IMG/VR virus record: IMGVR_UViG_2778261009_000008
Span: 1 to 51,038 of that record
Source: a virus
Taxonomy: Duplodnaviria; Heunggongvirae; Uroviricota; Caudoviricetes
Direction: 5' to 3' (one strand)
DNA: 51,038 bases
Positions 1 to 48,363 of the stretch are shown here, one piece after another. The translations under genes and the position numbers were made by a program. Positions within the stretch are counted from its first letter, which is position 1; each line of letters opens with the position of its first letter. The notes below the pieces were generated by a model. The model searched no databases. It saw only the letters and a list, made by a program, of their open reading frames with translations, and was not told the DNA's origin.

Positions 1-1131
1 TCAAATGACCAGTTTTTTCCATTCCTTACCGCGTGCGTCGTTGTAAATATCGGTCATTTTTTGATTCGAATGGCCCAGCAAAATTTTGGTATCAATTCCC
101 TGTTCTCTGAACAATCGTTCTGATAAAGATCTCTGCTCATGGAAAGAGGGTGGGGTGCCATTAGCACGCCAGTTGTAATCCACAGAATCCCGGGCTTTTT
201 TAAATGCAACGGTTAACGTTGCTGGCTTAACCATCCCGCCGCGCTTAGCTGTCCCTTTAGCATGATGGTGGTGCAATAGCCACGGACTAAGAACGCAATC
301 GCGACAGGATGACACCACATCATCCAGGGTGAGATTTAATTTATCGCAACGCAGAGCCAGAGGGATGGCAATCCGGGTTCCTGTTTTTTGCTGTTCGACA
401 TGAAGATAACCATCCCTGATATCCGAAAATTTCATTTTGCAAATATCTGAAAGGCGCTGGCCTGTCATCAGTGCCAGCAGCATACCACGCTGTAAAAAGT
501 AACCATCCTTTTCCGCTGCATTATAAATCATCATCCACTCATCAAAGGTCAGTCGTTGCCGTGATATCCGTACCTGTGGTTTTTTTGCCGATTCTGCAGG
601 GTTAAAGCCTAGCGGGACATCGCCCGTTTGCTGGGCCTCCCGGAAAACATCGATCAGTACTTTCCTGAAAATTTGTCCCATTCTGTTATGTCCTTTTGCC
701 TTGTAATCTTCCAGCACCGATACCACATCTTTTACGGTTATGGCATCTAATGGTCTGGTACCAAAACGTTCATCAAATACTCTGAGAGGGGATGCTTTCT
801 GTTTCAGTGTGTTGAGTTTGATCTCTCCGTTTTCATATCTTTCCTGTTGAATTTTTCGGTAACTATTCAGAAAAGCAGAAACGGTTGATGGACTACCGGT
901 ATCACTAATAATTTTCTCCTGCAGACTGAGCATTTGTTCCATTTGTTGCCTGGCAAGACGGCTGTTCGCTTCTGCTGCAAGAGCTTCTGCCTGTTTCTGG
1001 TCAATACTGCCGAGTCCGTGATTTTTTCCTGTTATGGGATGCCTGTAACGCCAGTAAACTTTGTTATTTCTTTTGTCAAAATACGGAGATAATCCCGGAA
1101 CTTCAGTTTTATATTTTCGTGGGCGCGCCAT
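1..1131 (-). CDS. int: Phage tyrosine integrase (lambda Int family)
   Basis: 376 aa ORF ending at window edge; N-terminal arm-binding-like region and C-terminal catalytic domain (…HDARG…Y) typical of lambdoid integrases; followed by an xis-like gene. Confidence 0.9.
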   Translation of the reverse strand: MARPRKYKTEVPGLSPYFDKRNNKVYWRYRHPITGKNHGLGSIDQKQAEALAAEANSRLARQQMEQMLSLQEKIISDTGSPSTVSAFLNSYRKIQQERYENGEIKLNTLKQKASPLRVFDERFGTRPLDAITVKDVVSVLEDYKAKGHNRMGQIFRKVLIDVFREAQQTGDVPLGFNPAESAKKPQVRISRQRLTFDEWMMIYNAAEKDGYFLQRGMLLALMTGQRLSDICKMKFSDIRDGYLHVEQQKTGTRIAIPLALRCDKLNLTLDDVVSSCRDCVLSPWLLHHHHAKGTAKRGGMVKPATLTVAFKKARDSVDYNWRANGTPPSFHEQRSLSERLFREQGIDTKILLGHSNQKMTDIYNDARGKEWKKLVI

Positions 1132-11144: not shown

Positions 11145-11657
11145 GTGCTTCCAGCAGAAGAAGCGGAAGAGCTGGCACGGATTGCGCTGGCATCACTGGC
11201 AGCAGTATCGGATGAACGAGCAGCCTATGAATTATTTATGGAGAAGCGTTTCGGAGAATCTGTAGATCGCCGCAGAGCAAAAAATGGCGATAGAGAATAC
11301 ATGGCATGGGATATGGCGCTTGGCTGGATTATCTGGTGTCACCGCGCCGCCATGCTTCAGGCTGGAAACTTTCGGGAAAATAAGGGTTCGTCAACCAATA
11401 ATTTTCGGGAAATCTCGGAAACGTCAACCAACTATCCGGTAACTCCGGATGGTTGGATAAGCTGTAGTGAGCGAATGCCGGATGATGGTCAGCACGTAAT
11501 TATTTTATGTGATGGCGCATTCGTTCTTTATGCGCAATATCGAGACGGTGAGTTTTTTGATGTAGTCCGTAATGGTGATGAATTTTTCGAAACACAGAGC
11601 CGCAATGTAACCGGCTGGATGCCGCTACCAGAACCGCCGCAGGAGGTGCGCCAATGA
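11145..11657 (+). CDS. DUF551-domain phage protein
   Basis: 170 aa (GTG start); C-terminal …WISCSERMPDDGQHVIILCDG…VTGWMPLPEPP is the typical DUF551 signature. Confidence 0.65.
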   Translation: MLPAEEAEELARIALASLAAVSDERAAYELFMEKRFGESVDRRRAKNGDREYMAWDMALGWIIWCHRAAMLQAGNFRENKGSSTNNFREISETSTNYPVTPDGWISCSERMPDDGQHVIILCDGAFVLYAQYRDGEFFDVVRNGDEFFETQSRNVTGWMPLPEPPQEVRQ

Positions 11658-11737
11658 ACTGGCCTGAAGCATTTGCAATTACAGGCGTTGCTATGGTTAT
11701 CGCTTTTTTAATATATGTTATTTGTCGGTGGGGGTAA
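11654..11737 (+). CDS. Small hydrophobic peptide (27 aa)
   Basis: MNWPEAFAITGVAMVIAFLIYVICRWG with perfect SD AGGAGG 7 nt upstream; single predicted TM helix; below track cutoff. Confidence 0.45.
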   Translation: MNWPEAFAITGVAMVIAFLIYVICRWG

Positions 11738-11772
11738 AAACGTTCGCCGGGATTCACACCAAAGGAGGGAAT

Positions 11773-11877
11773 ATGTCGGATGATATCTCACTGGCAATGG
11801 AAGGCGCTCTGGCCGTTATTGTTGTTGTGGGTGTTTACTGCCTGGTCGTGCTTTTGATGGATCGTCTGGGGAGCTGA
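11773..11877 (+). CDS. Small hydrophobic peptide (34 aa)
   Basis: MSDDISLAMEGALAVIVVVGVYCLVVLLMDRLGS with SD AAAGGAGGG upstream; single TM helix. Confidence 0.45.
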   Translation: MSDDISLAMEGALAVIVVVGVYCLVVLLMDRLGS

Positions 11878-12043
11878 ATTCATTACGATATGGGAATTTC
11901 CATATCGGGTAAAAAGGGGGGAGTAAAACGAGAGTCAAGTAGATGTATCGGTCAAAAATTGAGCAGTAAAAGGGGCGATATTAATCGCCCTTGAGTTGTA
12001 TTAGTTATCATTTTGTTGCCTTGCCGGGAGTAAGTCGAGCTTG

Positions 12044-12688
12044 CTATTTAACTGTCCATGCCGGGCTGAAATCCACTTCCTGAAATAACTCAGTTAGCCC
12101 GCTAATTTGTTTAAGTCTCAGTACTTCATCCTGATCCATACCCAACTCAGTGCCAATGCGTTCATCTGCCCATCCCAAGCGTGAAAGATCTCTTACAATA
12201 TCAGACACTGAGTCTATCTGGTGTTTCCCCCTAGCCCGGTTATGTCGAATGGTTGCGGCAATGCGTGCGGCTTGCCCTTTTCTCTCTGGATTAATACAGG
12301 CTACAGGCAGCCAGCCCCTCAGACGTTTTCCTGTAACTGATTCTCTGCCCAATAACTGACGATGAAAACCATCCACCACCAGATAATGATTCTTCTCCTC
12401 TGACACCACCACCGGTTGTGTGAAACCATCTTTTTCCAGTGACTGCTTCAGCAGTTTCTTCTCACTTGGTGCCATGACATTGGGGTTATAATCGTTGGCT
12501 ACCACCTCATCCGCTTTCACCCACAGCACACAGTCTACAGGCTCCTGTGCAAAAGGACTGACTTCATGCAGTACCCCGCGCAGATGGTTAAGGGCTCGTA
12601 TGGACTCTTCTTCGGGCTGTTCCCGACTGAAGTACTGACGAATCATGTTGCTTAGTACATCCATCTCAGGCGTCACAGAATCCCCCAT
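12044..12688 (-). CDS. ParB-like nuclease domain protein (IbrB-like)
   Basis: 214 aa; ParB/Srx-fold motifs (…YLVVDGFHRQ…, …IRHNRARG…); overlaps the upstream PAPS-reductase-like gene. Confidence 0.8.
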   Translation of the reverse strand: MGDSVTPEMDVLSNMIRQYFSREQPEEESIRALNHLRGVLHEVSPFAQEPVDCVLWVKADEVVANDYNPNVMAPSEKKLLKQSLEKDGFTQPVVVSEEKNHYLVVDGFHRQLLGRESVTGKRLRGWLPVACINPERKGQAARIAATIRHNRARGKHQIDSVSDIVRDLSRLGWADERIGTELGMDQDEVLRLKQISGLTELFQEVDFSPAWTVK

Positions 12689-13899
12689 TCTTTCCTCCTT
12701 TCCTTCATTCGTTGCAGATAACGCTCATAGTGCCGGGGTTTGTTCGGACTGAAGGAGAGGGTCCGGCACCAGAAGTCATTCTTTATGAGCGTCTTACAGA
12801 TACGTCGCCAGGACGGGATATCCCGGCTCCCCAGGTCATTCTCCTGTTCATCCGGGATATCATCCGGGAAGCCCCGCGTCTGATACCAGCGCAGGTAGAC
12901 TGCAATTTTGTTACGGTAATGTTCTGCTGTTCTTTCTGGCATAACATCCAGCATGAACATTGCGTAGCTGCGCCAGGTATGATGAGCCGGTTTTGTGATT
13001 CGTTTACGCAGAGCAAAATAGGCACCGCTTTCATTGGCATAAAGAGCGCCACTGGCAGCCCCTGACACTCGCTCACACATCCTGGCCCAGGTTTCCGGCT
13101 CCAGAACATGGTAAAGCCACAGCCCCTTACGCTGTTCCGGGCCAAAGGGCTCACAAACACGCATGTTGCGTAACGACACTCCGGCACGGTACATTAGGTC
13201 GTACAGGGGATTGTAGATGGCGCGGGTTCTTGAGTTATACGTCCATATATCATTTGTTTTCCAGTCATACAATGGATACATGGTGTAGTAAAAACCATCG
13301 GGTGAAGCGGTGGTCCAGGGTTTATCATCTGCATATCTCAGTTTGCGCTGAGACACCAGTCCCATAAAGCGATTGAGCGATTCATCAGCACGAACACCAG
13401 TTAGTATTCCCACTCCACATCGGTTACCGGCAAACCAGGAAGAAAATGCCGGAACAAATTCTTCAAACGTCATGGCATACCGATAAAATGGGAAATACGA
13501 CATATCTGTAATAGCGTCATCTGGTGGCTGACGAACCCATTCTACACCTGGCTCCCAACATATCCATTCTGGCTGAAACTGAGAGACGCCATTTACCGTA
13601 GTCAGAGGAAGCGCTACCCAGTAAAAATTGTCTGTCACATGCCGGTACATTTCCCTCATCTTTTGGATATGATTAATCGTGCACTGATATTGGGCTTCCC
13701 AGTCAATGAATAAAACCGAAAAACGACGTTTTTTTCTACTGGCGACTTCTGCCACAAGATGGAAAAGCACAGTAGAGTCTTTGCCACCAGAAAAAGACAA
13801 GCAGACCTCATTAAACGTTTCGAACAACCATTCAATGCGATGGATTGCTGCTGACAGAACATTTTCCCCTGTGCTGATTTTTGTTATGGTTCCTGACAT
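12673..13899 (-). CDS. PAPS-reductase-like PP-loop ATP pyrophosphatase (IbrA-like)
   Basis: 408 aa; PP-loop motif SFSGGKDS near the N-terminus; AT-rich promoter-like region upstream (13900-14050). Confidence 0.85.
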   Translation of the reverse strand: MSGTITKISTGENVLSAAIHRIEWLFETFNEVCLSFSGGKDSTVLFHLVAEVASRKKRRFSVLFIDWEAQYQCTINHIQKMREMYRHVTDNFYWVALPLTTVNGVSQFQPEWICWEPGVEWVRQPPDDAITDMSYFPFYRYAMTFEEFVPAFSSWFAGNRCGVGILTGVRADESLNRFMGLVSQRKLRYADDKPWTTASPDGFYYTMYPLYDWKTNDIWTYNSRTRAIYNPLYDLMYRAGVSLRNMRVCEPFGPEQRKGLWLYHVLEPETWARMCERVSGAASGALYANESGAYFALRKRITKPAHHTWRSYAMFMLDVMPERTAEHYRNKIAVYLRWYQTRGFPDDIPDEQENDLGSRDIPSWRRICKTLIKNDFWCRTLSFSPNKPRHYERYLQRMKERRKEWGIL

Positions 13900-14053
13900 A
13901 CAATCTTCTAATGATAAAACGGTAAAACCTATACTTATTAAGTAATATTATGTAACAATCATTTTGCATGAATGCAATATGTGATGGTCTTATACACTTT
14001 TTATCGCATTCTGGTTAAAATCATCCAGCCAGCCTGAACAACTGGCACCTGCT

Positions 14054-14344
14054 GTGTCACCGGAGAACCCGATGGCGCAACATATAAAATCCCACAATTC
14101 TGAAGCCGTCCCGGCCATTAAGCGGGGGCGGCATTCGCACGTATTTAAAACCCACTGGTACCAGCATCCTCCATGCACTGAAGAACAGGCCGAATGGCTG
14201 ATTCAGTGTTACCGCAGGCGCGGATACGAGGTTAAGAAAGCCCTCAGCCTCAATTATCGTCACTGGATAATCTCTGTCAGGCTCCCTTATTCCGAACGTC
14301 CACCGCGTCCGTCCCGCACATTCCAGCAACGTATCTGGAGGTAA
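14054..14344 (+). CDS. Hypothetical small basic protein
   Basis: 96 aa ORF (alternative start MAQHIK at 14072) immediately upstream of the DUF968 gene. Confidence 0.45.
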   Translation: MSPENPMAQHIKSHNSEAVPAIKRGRHSHVFKTHWYQHPPCTEEQAEWLIQCYRRRGYEVKKALSLNYRHWIISVRLPYSERPPRPSRTFQQRIWR

Positions 14345-14345
14345 C

Positions 14346-15395
14346 GTGCGGGTATTACTTCGACCTGTTCTGGTGCCGGAACTTGGCCTGGTGGTCCTTA
14401 AGCCCGGACGCGAATCACTGCCTGTTTTTCATTGCGGCAGGGTGCTGGTGGAGCCGGAACCGAAAAGCATGCGTGCTCTGCCGTCCGGGTTTGTACCTGC
14501 CGTTCGCCAGCCGCTGGCGGAAGATAAATCATTACTGCCATTTTTCAGCGATGAGCGGGTGATCCGTGCTGCGGGTGGCGCTGGTGTACTGTCTGACTGG
14601 TTATTACGTCACGTGAAATCCTGCCAGTGGCCACACGGCGATTATCATCACAGCGAAACCGTCATTCACCGTTACAGTACCGGCGCGATGGTGTTGTGCT
14701 GGCACTGCGACAACCACCTGCGGGAGCAGACATCTGATTCACTGGAGCTACTTGCTCAACAGAATCTGGCCGCCTGGATGATTGACGTCATCCGTCACGT
14801 AATGAATGGCGCACAGGAGCGTGAATTATCGCTGGCTGAATTATCCTGGTGGGCGGTCTGCAATCAGGTGGCTGATGCGCTTCCGGAATCTGTATTGCGT
14901 CGTTCGCTGGGATTACCGGTGGAAAAAATTCGCTCCGTATACAGTGAGAGCGACATCATACCGGGAGAGCAGACCGCCACCAGCATCCTGAAGCAGCGGA
15001 CAAAAAACATAGCGCCACCGCTTCACGCCCACCAGCCACAAACCACGCCACAGGAAAAGACGGTAGTAAGCATCGCCGTTGATCCGGAGTCCCCGGAATC
15101 TTTCATGAAACGGCCTAAACGTCGTCGCTGGGTTAATGAAAAGTTCACGCGCTGGGTTAAGACGCAGCCGTGTGCATGCTGTGGAAAGCCAACTGATGAT
15201 CCGCATCACTTGATTGGCCATGGGCAGGGCGGTATGGGGACAAAATCCCACGATATTTTCACACTACCGTTGTGCCGGGAGCACCACAACGAACTTCATG
15301 CTGACCCGCTGGAGTTTGAGAAAAAGTACGGGTCCCAGGTTGAGTTAATTTTTCATTTTCTTGATCACGCCTTTGCGACTGGCGTGCTCGGGTAA
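14346..15395 (+). CDS. DUF968-domain protein (YdfU-like)
   Basis: 349 aa; Cys/His-rich C-terminus (…CACCGKPTDDPHH…CREHHNELH…); standard position upstream of rusA. Confidence 0.8.
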   Translation: MRVLLRPVLVPELGLVVLKPGRESLPVFHCGRVLVEPEPKSMRALPSGFVPAVRQPLAEDKSLLPFFSDERVIRAAGGAGVLSDWLLRHVKSCQWPHGDYHHSETVIHRYSTGAMVLCWHCDNHLREQTSDSLELLAQQNLAAWMIDVIRHVMNGAQERELSLAELSWWAVCNQVADALPESVLRRSLGLPVEKIRSVYSESDIIPGEQTATSILKQRTKNIAPPLHAHQPQTTPQEKTVVSIAVDPESPESFMKRPKRRRWVNEKFTRWVKTQPCACCGKPTDDPHHLIGHGQGGMGTKSHDIFTLPLCREHHNELHADPLEFEKKYGSQVELIFHFLDHAFATGVLG

Positions 15396-46635: not shown

Positions 46636-48363
46636 ATGACAGTCAGAATATCGGGTGTGCTGAAGGATGGTACGGGAAAAGCGGTACCGGGATGCACGAT
46701 AGAGCTGAAAGCGCGCCGCACAACGGAGACGGTGATTGTCACCACGGTGGCGTATGGTCAGCCGGGGGAAACCGGCAGTTACAGTATGGATGTTGAGCCG
46801 GGGTTGTACCGGGTGACGCTGAACACGGAAGGGTACGCGCCGTCATATGTGGGTGACATTCTGGTGAAGGCGGATTCTGCACCGGGAACGCTGAATAAAT
46901 TTCTGATGGACCTGGAGGACGCACAGTATTACCCGAAAGCCCTTGCAGAGCTGGAAGCGGTGGCAGCGGAAATCCTGAAACGTGCAGAAGCGTCAGCGGC
47001 CAGTGCGGAGGAGGCAAAAAAACGGGCAGAGAATGCGCGGGGACCGAAGGGGGATAAGGGGGACACCGGGCCGCAGGGTATTCCCGGGCCAAAAGGCGAT
47101 ACCGGCGAGCGGGGGCCAAAGGGTGAGCGTGGTGAGACAGGACCACAGGGGCTTCAGGGTGTGAAAGGTGAACGGGGAGAGAAGGGCGAAAAAGGCGAGC
47201 CGGGAGGGCCGGATGCGACGACGGCACAGAAGGGAATTGTGCAGTTAAGCAGCACAACGGACAGTGATGATGAAACGAAGGCAGCCACCCCGAAAGCGGT
47301 GAAAGCGGCAATGGACAAAGCGGACGGATGCCTGGAGAAAGCGAAAAACGGTGACGATATCCCGGATAAGGTGAAGTTTCTGAACACCGTGGGAGCAGCC
47401 AGAGTATACGGGCGGGACATTCATACGGGGGCCGGTGAATGGACCACGAGTGAGTTTGTCGCCTGGCTGAAAGAAAAAGGGGCATTTGACCAGCCTTACT
47501 GGATGATGAAGGCATCACTGCCTGCGGTAATGAATAAAGTCATCACGGATGTCGGACCGGGAAAACTCAATCTGGGTGGCTGCGCCATTGAGGTGATGGG
47601 GACGTATAACGCAGCCATAGTCCGGGTCACCATTGGCGAATACGGTGCAACGGGGTTTATTAATGGCACGGTCTGTACCTGTACGGTTTACGGCGACACA
47701 CAGTATTTCCACTGGCGGGTGGATTACAGCACAAAAAACAAACCGGATACGGTCAGCCAGCGGGATGCCAGCACGACGCAGAAAGGTGTGGTGCAGTTAA
47801 GCAGTGATACTGGCAGTAATGACGAAACAAAGGCAGCCACGCCGAAGGCCGTGAAGGCGGCAATGGATGTGGCAAATGAAGCGAAAACAAAGGCAGAAGA
47901 GGCTGCAGCAGGAGGTGGTGTTCCCGGTCCGAAAGGAGAGAAAGGTGACCCCGGAGCACAGGGTCCGAAAGGTGAAACGGGAGCAACAGGCCCCGCTGGT
48001 CCGCGGGGAGCGCAGGGACCGAAAGGGGAGAAAGGAGACCCCGGTCCCAGAGGTGAGCGTGGAGAAACCGGGCCGATGGGGCCGCCCGGGGCATCAGACG
48101 GGAAGAGCCGGGTTGTGGGTATCAGGCTGGGTAATAAACAGACTTATGCGCCGCAAACAGACAGCACTACATGGGCAGTGGATTTGGATATTGGTGCGAT
48201 GATTACGGGGATTGGCGGTTACAACGACGGAAACAAAACCCTTATTGACAGGGTATCTTACAGGCCGCTTCAGGTGACATTTGATGGTTCTCAGTGGCGT
48301 ACAGTCAGCGTGGGTGAGTATGTGTCGTCAGGAGCTTCGGGGTTTGAGTATTTTCCATTATAA
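46636..48363 (+). CDS. stf: Side tail fibre protein (Stf-like) with collagen-like Gly-X-Y repeats
   Basis: 575 aa; N-terminus [15 protein letters not shown]… parallels lambda Stf; two fibre-repeat motifs (QKG.VQLSS…[15 protein letters not shown]) and two Gly-X-Y tracts. Confidence 0.85.

What the first reader, a model, noticed from the sequence alone, without database searches (positions are those of the whole stretch)
12044..13899. IbrA/IbrB-like operon (PP-loop PAPS-reductase-like enzyme + ParB-like nuclease): candidate DNA-modification or defence module
A PP-loop ATP pyrophosphatase (SFSGGKDS) is translationally coupled to a ParB/Srx-fold protein, transcribed against the surrounding early-right genes with its own AT-rich promoter region. 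Such pairs are known as IbrAB, regulators of Eib adhesin expression, and this prophage also carries a YadA/Eib-like adhesin at the far end (49483-50478). The domain pair also resembles enzymes of DNA sulfur-modification and related systems, so a role in DNA modification or phage defence is plausible but unproven.
Basis: partly seen in the sequence, partly recalled or inferred. Interest (0 to 1): 0.65.

Follow-up and report, generated by a model that had tools for sequence, protein, structure and literature searches.

The report
Known IbrAB gene pair on prophage
The two genes are a real copy of the already named IbrA/IbrB pair, reported in 2002 to switch on an antibody-binding adhesin gene, here sitting on the same prophage as such an adhesin gene; what the two proteins do chemically is still unknown.

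Summary
Two overlapping minus-strand genes sit at 12673-13899 and 12044-12688. The first (ibrA, 408 aa) has the PP-loop SFSGGKDS, a PAPS-reductase-like domain and DUF3440. The second (ibrB, 214 aa) is a divergent ParB-like protein. They overlap by 16 nt, and a strong ribosome-binding site precedes ibrB.

They lie antisense in the nin region of an ompW-integrated lambdoid prophage. That prophage ends with an EibD-like adhesin gene at 49483-50478.

RefSeq already names the second gene product IbrB-like (its name for IbrA is a PAPS-reductase misnomer), and a GenBank phage record annotates a 91.7% identical copy as IbrA/IbrB. About 39% of complete E. coli genomes carry an ~87% identical copy. K-12 YbdN/YbdM are 58%/56% identical paralogues.

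IbrA and IbrB stay adjacent in 75 of 80 viral loci, usually inside replication and recombination modules, including a phage with no lysogeny genes.

Membership of Dnd, BREX-4, CysH, ParABS or any PADLOC defence family is not supported. Cysteines are not conserved across the family, whereas the PP-loop and the IbrB DGFHR and RHNRARG motifs are.

Most likely this is a self-contained, nucleotide-dependent, DNA-directed enzyme pair that raises expression of silent prophage genes such as eib. The chemistry is unresolved.

The gene pair is already known. Interest is moderate-low.

The parts
12673..13899 (-). ibrA: 408-aa PP-loop ATP-pyrophosphatase-type enzyme. It has a PAPS-reductase-like N-terminal domain (about residues 1-240) and a helical DUF3440 C-terminal domain.
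12044..12688 (-). ibrB: 214-aa divergent ParB/Srx-fold protein. Its motifs NDYNPN, DGFTQP, VDGFHR and TIRHNRARGKH are invariant across the family. The helical C-terminal region (ELGMDQDEVLRLKQ) is probably a helix-turn-helix.
   Evidence: The ORF was found. It matches phrog_2159 at 6.8e-83. A diverse profile (alignment A4) hits ParB, Noc and Spo0J structures at 1.3e-5 to 0.05. RefSeq names it 'IbrB-like domain-containing protein'. The helix-turn-helix is inferred only: Pfam finds none and the AlphaFold2 model is poor (pLDDT 52.5).
12673..12699 (-). Translational-coupling junction. The Shine-Dalgarno AGGAGG lies at 12699-12694, the ibrB ATG at 12688 and the ibrA stop TGA at 12675-12673, giving a 16-nt overlap.
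   Evidence: Read directly from the sequence. The same 16-nt overlap occurs in A->B loci L003-L010, L018, L019, L021, L024-L027, L030 and L077.
13900..14053 (-). AT-rich region upstream of ibrA, the presumed promoter and regulatory region. It contains TTGCAT (13977-13972) and CATAAT (13952-13947) with a 19-nt spacer, and a 6-2-6 palindrome TTGCATTCATGCAA.
   Evidence: GC is 0.38 across 13650-14100. The block is partly conserved in relatives, but the palindrome is not. No consensus promoter was detected here and there is no Rfam match. The function is inferred.
11971..11992 (.). GC-rich hairpin with T-tracts on both strands, lying between ibrB (minus strand) and the convergent small ORF 11722-11877 (plus strand). 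It is probably a bidirectional terminator that closes the ibrAB unit.
   Evidence: The terminator scan finds it on both strands. The sequence was read.
49483..50478 (+). Eib-family trimeric autotransporter adhesin gene (331 aa, with signal peptide and YadA anchor). It is the likely regulatory target of IbrAB on the same prophage.
   Evidence: It matches EibD structure 2xqh at 6.9e-24 and YadA structure 2lme at 7.7e-18, and YadA_anchor at 1.9e-15. All 9 genomes with an ibrAB allele at least 99.9% identical also carry an eib-like gene; in 8 of them the coordinates place it 37-43 kb from ibrAB.

Best explanation
This is a genuine ibrA-ibrB operon of the IbrAB/YbdNM family. It is carried as an antisense, self-contained cassette in the nin region of a lambdoid prophage whose right end encodes an Eib-type adhesin.

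Proposed working:
- IbrB is a ParB/Srx-fold nucleotide-binding protein with a C-terminal DNA-binding helical module. It takes the pair to DNA.
- IbrA uses its intact PP-loop to split ATP and adenylate a substrate on or near that DNA.
- The two proteins are made in fixed ratio by translational coupling and act only together.
- In the lysogen their activity raises expression of otherwise poorly expressed prophage accessory genes. The eib-like gene on the same prophage is the likely target.

What is shown here: the gene structure, the domain content, the obligate pairing, the family-wide conservation of nucleotide-binding motifs and the linkage to eib.

What comes from the literature: ibrAB activates eib expression (Sandt et al. 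2002, as cited in PMC7649339).

What is inferred: DNA targeting by IbrB, adenylation by IbrA, expression in the lysogen, and eib of this prophage being the target.
For: Identity:
- ORFs, domains and overlap are established.
- The DNA is 100% identical to a RefSeq locus annotated 'IbrB-like domain-containing protein'.
- The protein is 91.7% identical to the annotated IbrA of phage PhiR5_2.
- UniRef names homologues 81% identical 'Co-activator of prophage gene expression IbrA'.

Obligate pair:
- IbrB is adjacent on the same strand in 75 of 80 viral loci.
- Identities of IbrA and IbrB to the window proteins co-vary, r=0.96 over 73 loci.
- A Neisseria chromosome carries the pair alone among housekeeping genes.

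Enzyme-like conservation:
- In IbrA the PP-loop residues S37/G39/K40/D41/S42, plus D66, E68, R170, E173, S174, R177, D212, D217, N230, Y233, R247 and R277, are at least 90% conserved in 141 sequences reaching down to about 30% identity.
- In IbrB the motifs NDYNPN, DGxTQP, DGFHR and TIRHNRARGxH are invariant.
- By sequence, the nearest solved relatives of IbrB are the DNA-binding ParB, Noc and Spo0J.

DNA-related context: neighbours in phages are RusA, NinG/Rap, RecT, replication initiators, SSB, a DNA methyltransferase and an HNH endonuclease.

Link to eib:
- The literature states the link.
- An eib-like gene lies on the same prophage.
- It co-occurs in all 9 genomes carrying this allele.

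Lysogen expression is suggested by the antisense orientation, the AT-rich upstream region and the cassette's own terminator. ibrB mRNA was also reported to rise in Shiga-toxin-producing E. coli (STEC) after adherence to epithelial cells (PMC7649339).
Against: - No biochemical activity of any IbrA or IbrB appears in the searchable literature.
- The founding paper could not be read.
- The IbrB helix-turn-helix is not detected by Pfam, and its structure model is unreliable.
- No consensus promoter was found upstream of ibrA.
- No significant shared motif links the ibrA and eib upstream regions.
- IbrAB homologues occur in phages without eib or any lysogeny genes, such as FCL-2 (PMC4541368), and co-directionally inside early and replication modules. 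Eib activation therefore cannot be the ancestral function and may be indirect.
- The nine co-occurring genomes carry one prophage lineage, so they are not independent evidence.
Confidence: 0.55

Rival explanations
1. Phage DNA or nucleotide modification. IbrA adenylates a base or backbone position in DNA, or a nucleotide precursor. IbrB supplies DNA targeting or a ParB/Srx-type kinase or NTPase step. A further group is added in some phages by the associated GNAT acetyltransferase. The primary purpose is to protect or mark phage DNA, and eib activation is an epigenetic side effect.
For: - The pair sits in replication, recombination and nin-like modules next to DNA methyltransferases, RusA, NinG and RecT.
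- It occurs in phages without lysogeny genes.
- Both proteins show strongly enzyme-like conservation.
- Extra cassette genes lie between ibrB and ibrA: a GNAT in 13 of 80 loci and an unknown protein X in 34 of 80.
- The domain pair parallels DndB (ParB-like) plus DndC (PP-loop) (PMC10853773).
Against: - No modification has been reported.
- DndC similarity is marginal: 16.2 bits against a 290.4 cut-off.
- No cysteine is conserved family-wide, so sulfur insertion is unlikely as the general chemistry.
- In this prophage the cassette is antisense to the early operon, which does not fit a lytic-cycle DNA-modifying role.
- Chromosomal copies stand alone without any reader or restriction partner.
Confidence: 0.25
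2. Prophage-encoded anti-phage defence or superinfection exclusion. The pair senses or attacks incoming phage DNA or nucleotides.
For: - The cassette is placed like a moron (an add-on prophage gene with its own promoter and terminator, expressed in the lysogen), antisense and with its own terminator.
- There are weak PADLOC matches to BrxP (4.5e-8) and DndC (6e-5).
- A 2026 preprint lists untested operons of a nucleoid-associated protein with a PAPS reductase, some also with Arc- and ParBc-domain proteins, as defence candidates.
Against: - The PADLOC matches cover only the generic PP-loop region, and no system is called.
- No nucleoid-associated protein gene, nuclease or other effector lies adjacent.
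- The pair is common in virulent-type and temperate phage genomes within replication modules.
- It also occurs in housekeeping chromosomal contexts, not in defence islands.
Confidence: 0.1
3. Small-molecule biosynthesis. IbrA acts like CysD or FMN adenylyltransferase and makes an AMP-linked compound. IbrB acts as a ParB/Srx-type kinase, like SerK or SbnI. The product is a signal or cofactor that alters gene expression.
For: - NCBIfam gives a CysD local match at 6.4e-10.
- The IbrB profile weakly touches SbnI, E=0.25.
- A GNAT partner occurs in some cassettes.
Against: - All these matches are remote, at 15-21% identity.
- The SbnI hit is not significant.
- The genomic context is DNA metabolism, not metabolic operons.
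- The large helical DUF3440 domain and the ParB-like partner fit a macromolecular substrate better.
Confidence: 0.07
4. Ordinary sulfate-assimilation PAPS reductase (a CysH-type auxiliary metabolic gene) together with a plasmid-type ParB partition protein, as the database product names suggest.
For: RefSeq names the product 'phosphoadenosine phosphosulfate reductase'. PHROG labels the partner 'ParB-like partition protein'.
Against: - CysH equivalog models score far below cut-off: 37.6 against 154 bits, and 33.5 against 254.
- IbrA keeps a full PP-loop and adds DUF3440.
- ParB_N is below its gathering score.
- There is no ParA gene, and the element is an integrated prophage.
Confidence: 0.02

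Closest known systems
IbrA/IbrB of E. coli ECOR-9 (immunoglobulin-binding regulators; Sandt, Hopper & Hill 2002, J Bacteriol 184:3640)
   Same: - The two-gene operon is the same, with ibrA before ibrB and the genes overlapping.
- The domain content is the same.
- The DNA is about 87% identical to the widespread chromosomal ibrAB island copy (CFT073, Nissle 1917, UM146).
- The protein is 91.7% identical to a phage gene annotated IbrA.
- Eib-family genes are associated in both cases.
   Different: - Here the pair is inside the same prophage that carries an eib-like gene, in the nin region and antisense. As far as I recall, the ECOR-9 pair lies on a separate chromosomal island.
- This allele (at least 95% identical) is rare, found in 11 of 5426 complete genomes.
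- Function was not tested here.
YbdN/YbdM of E. coli K-12 (b0602/b0601)
   Same: They are paralogues with the same architecture and overlapping genes, 58% and 56% identical at protein level.
   Different: ybdNM is chromosomal and sits next to its LysR-type repressor CitR/YbdO (PMC9068703). No such regulator gene lies in the window.
DndB/DndC of the DNA phosphorothioation system
   Same: A ParB-superfamily protein is paired with a PAPS-reductase-like PP-loop ATPase. The IbrB motif DGFHR resembles the DndB signature DGQHR; that signature is quoted from my own knowledge.
   Different: - The DndC model scores 16.2 bits against a 290.4 cut-off.
- There are no DndA, DndD or DndE genes.
- The cysteines are not conserved across the family.
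- The DUF3440 domain is absent from DndC.
ParB-family CTP-dependent DNA clamps used as regulators (ParB/Noc; also KorB and VirB, named from my own knowledge)
   Same: The N-terminal ParB fold is shared, with the G-x-x-R nucleotide motif (GERR in Spo0J against GFHR here; alignment) followed by a helical DNA-binding region. VirB offers a functional analogy, since it counteracts silencing of horizontally acquired virulence genes.
   Different: The similarity is weak, at best 1.3e-5. The Box I motif QPR is replaced by NPN. IbrB strictly needs an enzyme partner. CTP binding is untested.
BrxP of type 4 BREX
   Same: Both have a PAPS-reductase-like PP-loop domain (PADLOC 4.5e-8, residues 17-96).
   Different: The match covers only about 80 residues. 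BrxP is 779 profile positions long and carries further domains, including DUF4007 (PMC12839542). No PglZ, BrxC or BrxL genes are present here.

Membership tests
IbrAB / YbdNM family | IbrA-type protein: PP-loop (SGGKDS), PAPS_reduct domain and C-terminal DUF3440. | tested here: met
   Pfam gives PAPS_reduct at 60.8 bits (cut-off 22.5) and DUF3440 at 115.7 bits (cut-off 25). SFSGGKDS lies at residues 35-42.
IbrAB / YbdNM family | An IbrB-type ParB-like partner encoded immediately adjacent on the same strand. | tested here: met
   The two genes overlap by 16 nt. IbrB matches phrog_2159 at 6.8e-83. The same adjacency holds in 75 of 80 viral loci.
IbrAB / YbdNM family | Close sequence similarity to proteins already named IbrA/IbrB. 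| tested here: met
   The protein is 91.7% identical to PhiR5_2 IbrA. RefSeq names the partner 'IbrB-like domain-containing protein' at 100% DNA identity. K-12 YbdN and YbdM are 58% and 56% identical.
IbrAB / YbdNM family | Both genes are needed to activate expression of eib immunoglobulin-binding adhesin genes. | not testable with these tools
   This is known only from Sandt et al. 2002, as cited in PMC7649339. An eib-like gene is present on the same prophage.
Dnd DNA phosphorothioation (DndBCDE) | A DndC-equivalog sulfurtransferase. | tested here: not met
   TIGR03183 scores 16.2 bits against a cut-off of 290.4. PADLOC DndC gives 6.2e-5 with no passing stretch.
Dnd DNA phosphorothioation (DndBCDE) | Partner genes dndD (an ABC ATPase) and dndE in the same cluster. 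| tested here: not met
   None is annotated across the near-identical prophage. The pair stands alone in the CFT073, A41, K-12 and Neisseria loci.
Dnd DNA phosphorothioation (DndBCDE) | Conserved cysteines for a [4Fe-4S] cluster and sulfur relay. | tested here: inconclusive
   The window protein has C249, C275, C368 and C378. Across 141 family members these are only 67%, 23%, 59% and 67% conserved, and they occur in variable combinations.
Type 4 BREX (BrxP) | A full-length BrxP together with PglZ, BrxC and BrxL neighbours. | tested here: not met
   The BrxP match covers residues 17-96 only, at 29.8 bits. No such neighbours are annotated.
Assimilatory PAPS/APS reductase (CysH) | Passing the CysH equivalog models. 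| tested here: not met
   NF002537 scores 37.6 against 154, TIGR02057 33.5 against 254.2, and TIGR00434 32.1 against 165.1. Structural similarity is limited to the common fold at 15-21% identity.
ParABS partition system | A ParB_N domain above threshold, with a ParA partner and parS sites. | tested here: not met
   ParB_N scores 20 bits against a gathering score of 26.3. No ParA is annotated, and the element is an integrated prophage. parS sites were not searched for.
Known anti-phage defence systems (PADLOC-DB 2.0) | A match to a defence-system protein model beyond a generic domain. | tested here: not met
   IbrA gives only weak, local BrxP and DndC matches. IbrB gives one 13.6-bit PglX match.

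The most novel reading that the evidence does not exclude
IbrAB is an uncharacterised two-enzyme system that acts on nucleic acid or protein and is widespread in phages. IbrA would adenylate the target, and IbrB would add a ParB/Srx-type nucleotide-dependent step. In many phages a GNAT acetyltransferase and a conserved ~135-aa protein of unknown fold extend the system. Its product would be a new DNA or nucleotide mark. 'Activation of eib' would then be the visible consequence of that mark on silenced prophage DNA.
Probability: 0.3. Interest if true: 0.75.

Novelty: already known. Interest (0 to 1): 0.33.

Why it matters
The gene pair is a long-annotated one, so finding it is not news. [quoted passage not shown]

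It matters in three modest ways:
- Regulator and presumed target (ibrAB and an eib-like adhesin) lie on one prophage of human clinical and STEC-type E. coli. That gives a compact natural system for testing a 2002 genetic observation whose mechanism was never worked out.
- The RefSeq name 'PAPS reductase' is misleading, and so is the habit of counting such genes as viral sulfur-metabolism genes. The scores here show it is not CysH.
- The family is very large. More than 6,000 clusters at 90% identity were recovered, 310 clusters at 50% identity score E<=1e-30, and 142 isolated phage genomes carry it. It is conserved like an enzyme and sits in phage replication modules. A real biochemical activity, possibly a new nucleic-acid modification, remains to be found.

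Tried and rejected
- **Literature.** Nine searches (IbrA/IbrB, ibrAB/eib, DUF3440, ybdN/ybdM, and PAPS reductase with ParB, anti-phage, Srx and DndB) found no mechanistic study. Sandt 2002 and Maindola 2014 are not held.
- **Solved structures by sequence.** There is no close relative of either protein.
- **IbrB structure.** The AlphaFold2 model was too poor to use (pLDDT 52.5), because only homologues at least 72% identical could be supplied. No fold search was run on it.
- **Domain fusions.** Eight long IbrA homologues were checked for informative fusions and none was found.
- **Iron-sulfur or catalytic cysteine.** This idea is rejected as a family-wide feature, because the cysteines are poorly conserved.
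- **Shared operator.** Only an 11-mer is shared between the ibrA and eib upstream regions, and 21 of 300 shuffles do as well. The palindrome TTGCATTCATGCAA upstream of ibrA is not conserved in relatives.
- **Promoter.** The consensus scan found nothing in the proximal upstream region.
- **RNA families.** Rfam found no RNA family in 11600-14400.
- **Accessory genes.** The window has no homologue of protein X or of the GNAT. X has no Pfam, PHROG or PDB match.
- **Another eib prophage.** The JNEC-KY174 prophage was inspected from Q to its right end and no ibrAB was seen. Its nin region was not covered, so this is uninformative.
- **HTH checks.** Pfam at E<=10 finds no LuxR/GerE-type or other helix-turn-helix match in ORF 50493-51038, and no helix-turn-helix in the IbrB C-terminus.
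Full report
**1. Observation**

The finding's coordinates match two minus-strand ORFs exactly. One runs 12673..13899 (408 aa) and the other 12044..12688 (214 aa).

The first ORF carries SFSGGKDS. It matches Pfam PAPS_reduct (2.3e-16) and DUF3440 (2.7e-33), and PHROG families 2302 and 15645 (1.4e-85 and 1.3e-137).

The second ORF matches phrog_2159, 'ParB-like partition protein', at 6.8e-83. Its Pfam ParB_N match is below the gathering score, 20 bits against 26.3.

The sequence shows the ibrB ATG at 12688, preceded by AGGAGG at 12699-12694. The ibrA TGA is at 12675-12673, so the genes overlap by 16 nt. The same overlap recurs in relatives that are only 50-92% identical.

A hairpin at 11971-11992 reads as a terminator on both strands. 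It separates ibrB from a convergent small ORF.

The stretch around and upstream of the ibrA start has GC 0.38. No consensus sigma-70 site lies in the proximal 150 nt, and there is no Rfam match. The operon structure is therefore confirmed, but 'own promoter' is only inferred.

**2. Setting**

The window is a lambdoid prophage integrated next to ompW.
- The ibrAB segment is 100% identical to E. coli JNEC-KY203.
- The window aligns to that prophage at 99.5% over its first 27 kb.
- In the RefSeq annotation the pair lies between a DUF551 gene and DUF968, RusA and antiterminator Q. That is the nin region, and the pair is on the opposite strand to all its neighbours.
- RefSeq calls the products 'phosphoadenosine phosphosulfate reductase' and 'IbrB-like domain-containing protein'.

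The ORF at 49483-50478 is an Eib-family adhesin. It matches EibD structure 2xqh at 6.9e-24 and YadA_anchor at 1.9e-15.

**3. How common it is**

- About 39% of 5,426 complete E. coli genomes hold an ibrAB copy, nearly all at 80-90% DNA identity.
- These include CFT073, Nissle 1917 and UM146, where the pair sits in a chromosomal island.
- The allele in the window (at least 95% identical) is in only 11 genomes.
- All nine genomes with an allele at least 99.9% identical also have an eib-like gene. In eight of them the coordinates place it 37-43 kb away in the same relative orientation. This is one prophage lineage, not independent evidence.
- K-12 YbdN/YbdM are paralogues at 58% and 56% protein identity. 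They are repressed by the adjacent LysR regulator CitR (PMC9068703).

**4. Family anatomy**

The IbrA family is very large.
- More than 6,363 clusters at 90% identity were recovered among the 8,000 candidates scored.
- Among representatives at 50% identity, 310 score E<=1e-30 and 1,103 score E<=1e-10.
- 142 isolated phage genomes carry a homologue. Hosts include Flavobacterium, Streptococcus, Lactobacillus, Mycobacterium, Microbacterium, Faecalibacterium and Pseudomonas.
- Flavobacterium phage FCL-2 has IbrAB but no integrase or repressor, and no lysogeny has been detected (PMC4541368).

The two genes travel together. In 80 viral contigs, IbrB lies next to IbrA on the same strand in 75. Their divergence from the window proteins co-varies, r=0.96.

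Two gene orders exist: A->B with overlap, and B->...->A. In the second order the gap is filled in 34 loci by a conserved ~135-aa protein with no Pfam, PHROG or PDB match. In 13 loci, of either gene order, a GNAT acetyltransferase lies between the two genes. Some loci have both. The window has neither gene.

Recurrent neighbours in phages are RusA, NinG/Rap, RecT, replication initiators, SSB, a cytosine methyltransferase, HNH endonucleases and the large terminase. This is the same early, nin-like module as in the window. In a Neisseria chromosome the pair stands alone among housekeeping genes.

**5. The proteins**

*IbrA.* The AlphaFold2 model has mean pLDDT 75.9. The N-terminal ~240 residues are confident and the helical C-terminal domain only moderately so.
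- DUF3440 matches nothing.
- Across 141 family members the PP-loop and a set of acidic, basic and tryptophan residues are at least 90% conserved. No cysteine is: C249 67%, C378 67%, C368 59%, C275 23%, in variable combinations.
- The family core is therefore an ATP-pyrophosphatase or adenylating enzyme. It is not a cysteine-dependent reductase or an iron-sulfur sulfurtransferase.

*IbrB.* The model was unusable (pLDDT 52.5).
- A diverse alignment shows invariant NDYNPN, DGxTQP, VDGFHR, TIRHNRARGxH and ELGMxxDEVLRLxQ.
- Its profile hits ParB, Noc and Spo0J structures at 1.3e-5 to 0.05. In that alignment GFHR lines up with the GERR nucleotide-binding box.
- The C-terminal helix-turn-helix is my inference from helix pattern and sequence. 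Pfam does not detect one.

**6. Mechanism**

The evidence fits a self-contained two-protein machine that depends on nucleotides and acts on DNA or at DNA.
- IbrB would bring nucleotide-dependent DNA binding.
- IbrA would bring adenylation.
- Coupled translation fixes their ratio.

In a lysogen, the antisense cassette with its AT-rich leader and its own terminator should be expressed independently of the lytic programme. This is an inference.

The only functional datum is genetic and from the literature: ibrAB enhances Eib expression (Sandt et al. 2002, as cited in PMC7649339). That paper also reports ibrB induction in STEC after adherence to epithelial cells.

I therefore take 'activator of silent prophage accessory genes, with the eib-like gene on the same prophage as likely target' as the best explanation (0.55).

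The presence of the pair in phages without eib or lysogeny means this cannot be the ancestral role, and the effect may be indirect. The main rival (0.25) is a phage DNA or nucleotide modification function, supported by the replication-module context and the GNAT and X accessory genes. Defence (0.10), small-molecule synthesis (0.07) and true CysH plus ParB (0.02) follow.

**7. Comparison with known systems**

Membership of the IbrAB/YbdNM family is met on architecture, pairing and sequence. The functional criterion cannot be tested here.

Membership of the other candidate families is not met.
- **Dnd:** DndC scores 16.2 against 290.4 bits, there is no dndD or dndE, and the cysteines are not conserved.
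- **Type 4 BREX:** the match is an 80-residue PP-loop stretch only, with no partner genes.
- **CysH:** 37.6 against 154 bits.
- **ParABS:** sub-threshold, with no ParA gene.
- **PADLOC defence systems:** none is called.

These rest. The RefSeq product name for IbrA is a domain-level over-annotation.

**8. Verdict**

The gene pair is already known and annotated, so novelty is 'already known'.

The residual interest is that its biochemistry is unknown despite a very wide distribution. This prophage also links the pair physically to an eib-like gene, which makes the old genetic claim easy to test. Interest is 0.33.

The most novel reading not excluded is a new phage-borne modification system (probability about 0.3).

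Noticed in passing
L038:131-2803 (B-X-GNAT-A); also L050, L073, L076, L080; alignment A3: In environmental phage contigs the ibrB and ibrA genes are often separated by one or two extra genes. One is a conserved ~135-aa helical protein with no Pfam, PHROG or PDB match, found in 34 of 80 loci. The other is a GNAT acetyltransferase, found in 13 of 80 loci. The window has neither.
   Followed up: partly
L086:11886-15092 (CFT073) and L084:1-8000 (strain A41): The common chromosomal ibrAB copy (~87% DNA identity) lies in both strains next to a cluster encoding a YaiO-type outer-membrane barrel, a glycosyltransferase, a deacetylase and an acetyl- or acyltransferase. In A41 it also lies next to Pix fimbrial genes. 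This is another association with surface structures.
   Followed up: no
window 50493-51038 (+); L085:24033-24506 and L085:43261-43734: The eib-like gene is followed directly by a 181-aa ORF with no Pfam family. Its C-terminus looks LuxR/GerE-HTH-like by eye only; Pfam at E<=10 gives no such match. In the JNEC-KY174 prophage two of the three YadA-like genes are each followed by a ~474-nt hypothetical gene, so adhesin plus small ORF may be a mobile two-gene cassette.
   Followed up: partly
window 12673-13899: RefSeq's product name 'phosphoadenosine phosphosulfate reductase' for IbrA is not supported. All CysH and CysD models score 4-10 times below their cut-offs. Counting such phage genes as sulfur-metabolism auxiliary genes would be an error.
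   Followed up: yes
window 46636-48363 (+): The tail-fibre ORF (575 aa) contains two blocks of collagen-like Gly-X-Y repeats (for example [37 protein letters not shown]) flanking a globular middle part.
   Followed up: no
window 1-1131 (-) versus L001:8101-9232: The window starts exactly at the stop codon of an apparently intact 376-aa integrase ORF. In the 99.5% identical JNEC-KY203 prophage the integrase, capsid and portal genes are annotated as frameshifted and a replication ATPase has an internal stop.
   Followed up: partly
L085 (E. coli JNEC-KY174, 1803500-1849500): A prophage carries three separate YadA/Eib-like genes interspersed among tail genes, plus a type I restriction-modification HsdM/HsdS pair just downstream of Q. 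Up to six eib-like places occur per genome among the 69 eib-positive genomes.
   Followed up: no
window 13964-13977 (-): A perfect 6-2-6 palindrome, TTGCATTCATGCAA, lies 65-78 nt upstream of the ibrA start. The nearest -35-like and -10-like hexamers (TTGCAT and CATAAT) are 19 nt apart, an unusually long spacer. The palindrome is not conserved in the 92% and 87% identical relatives.
   Followed up: partly
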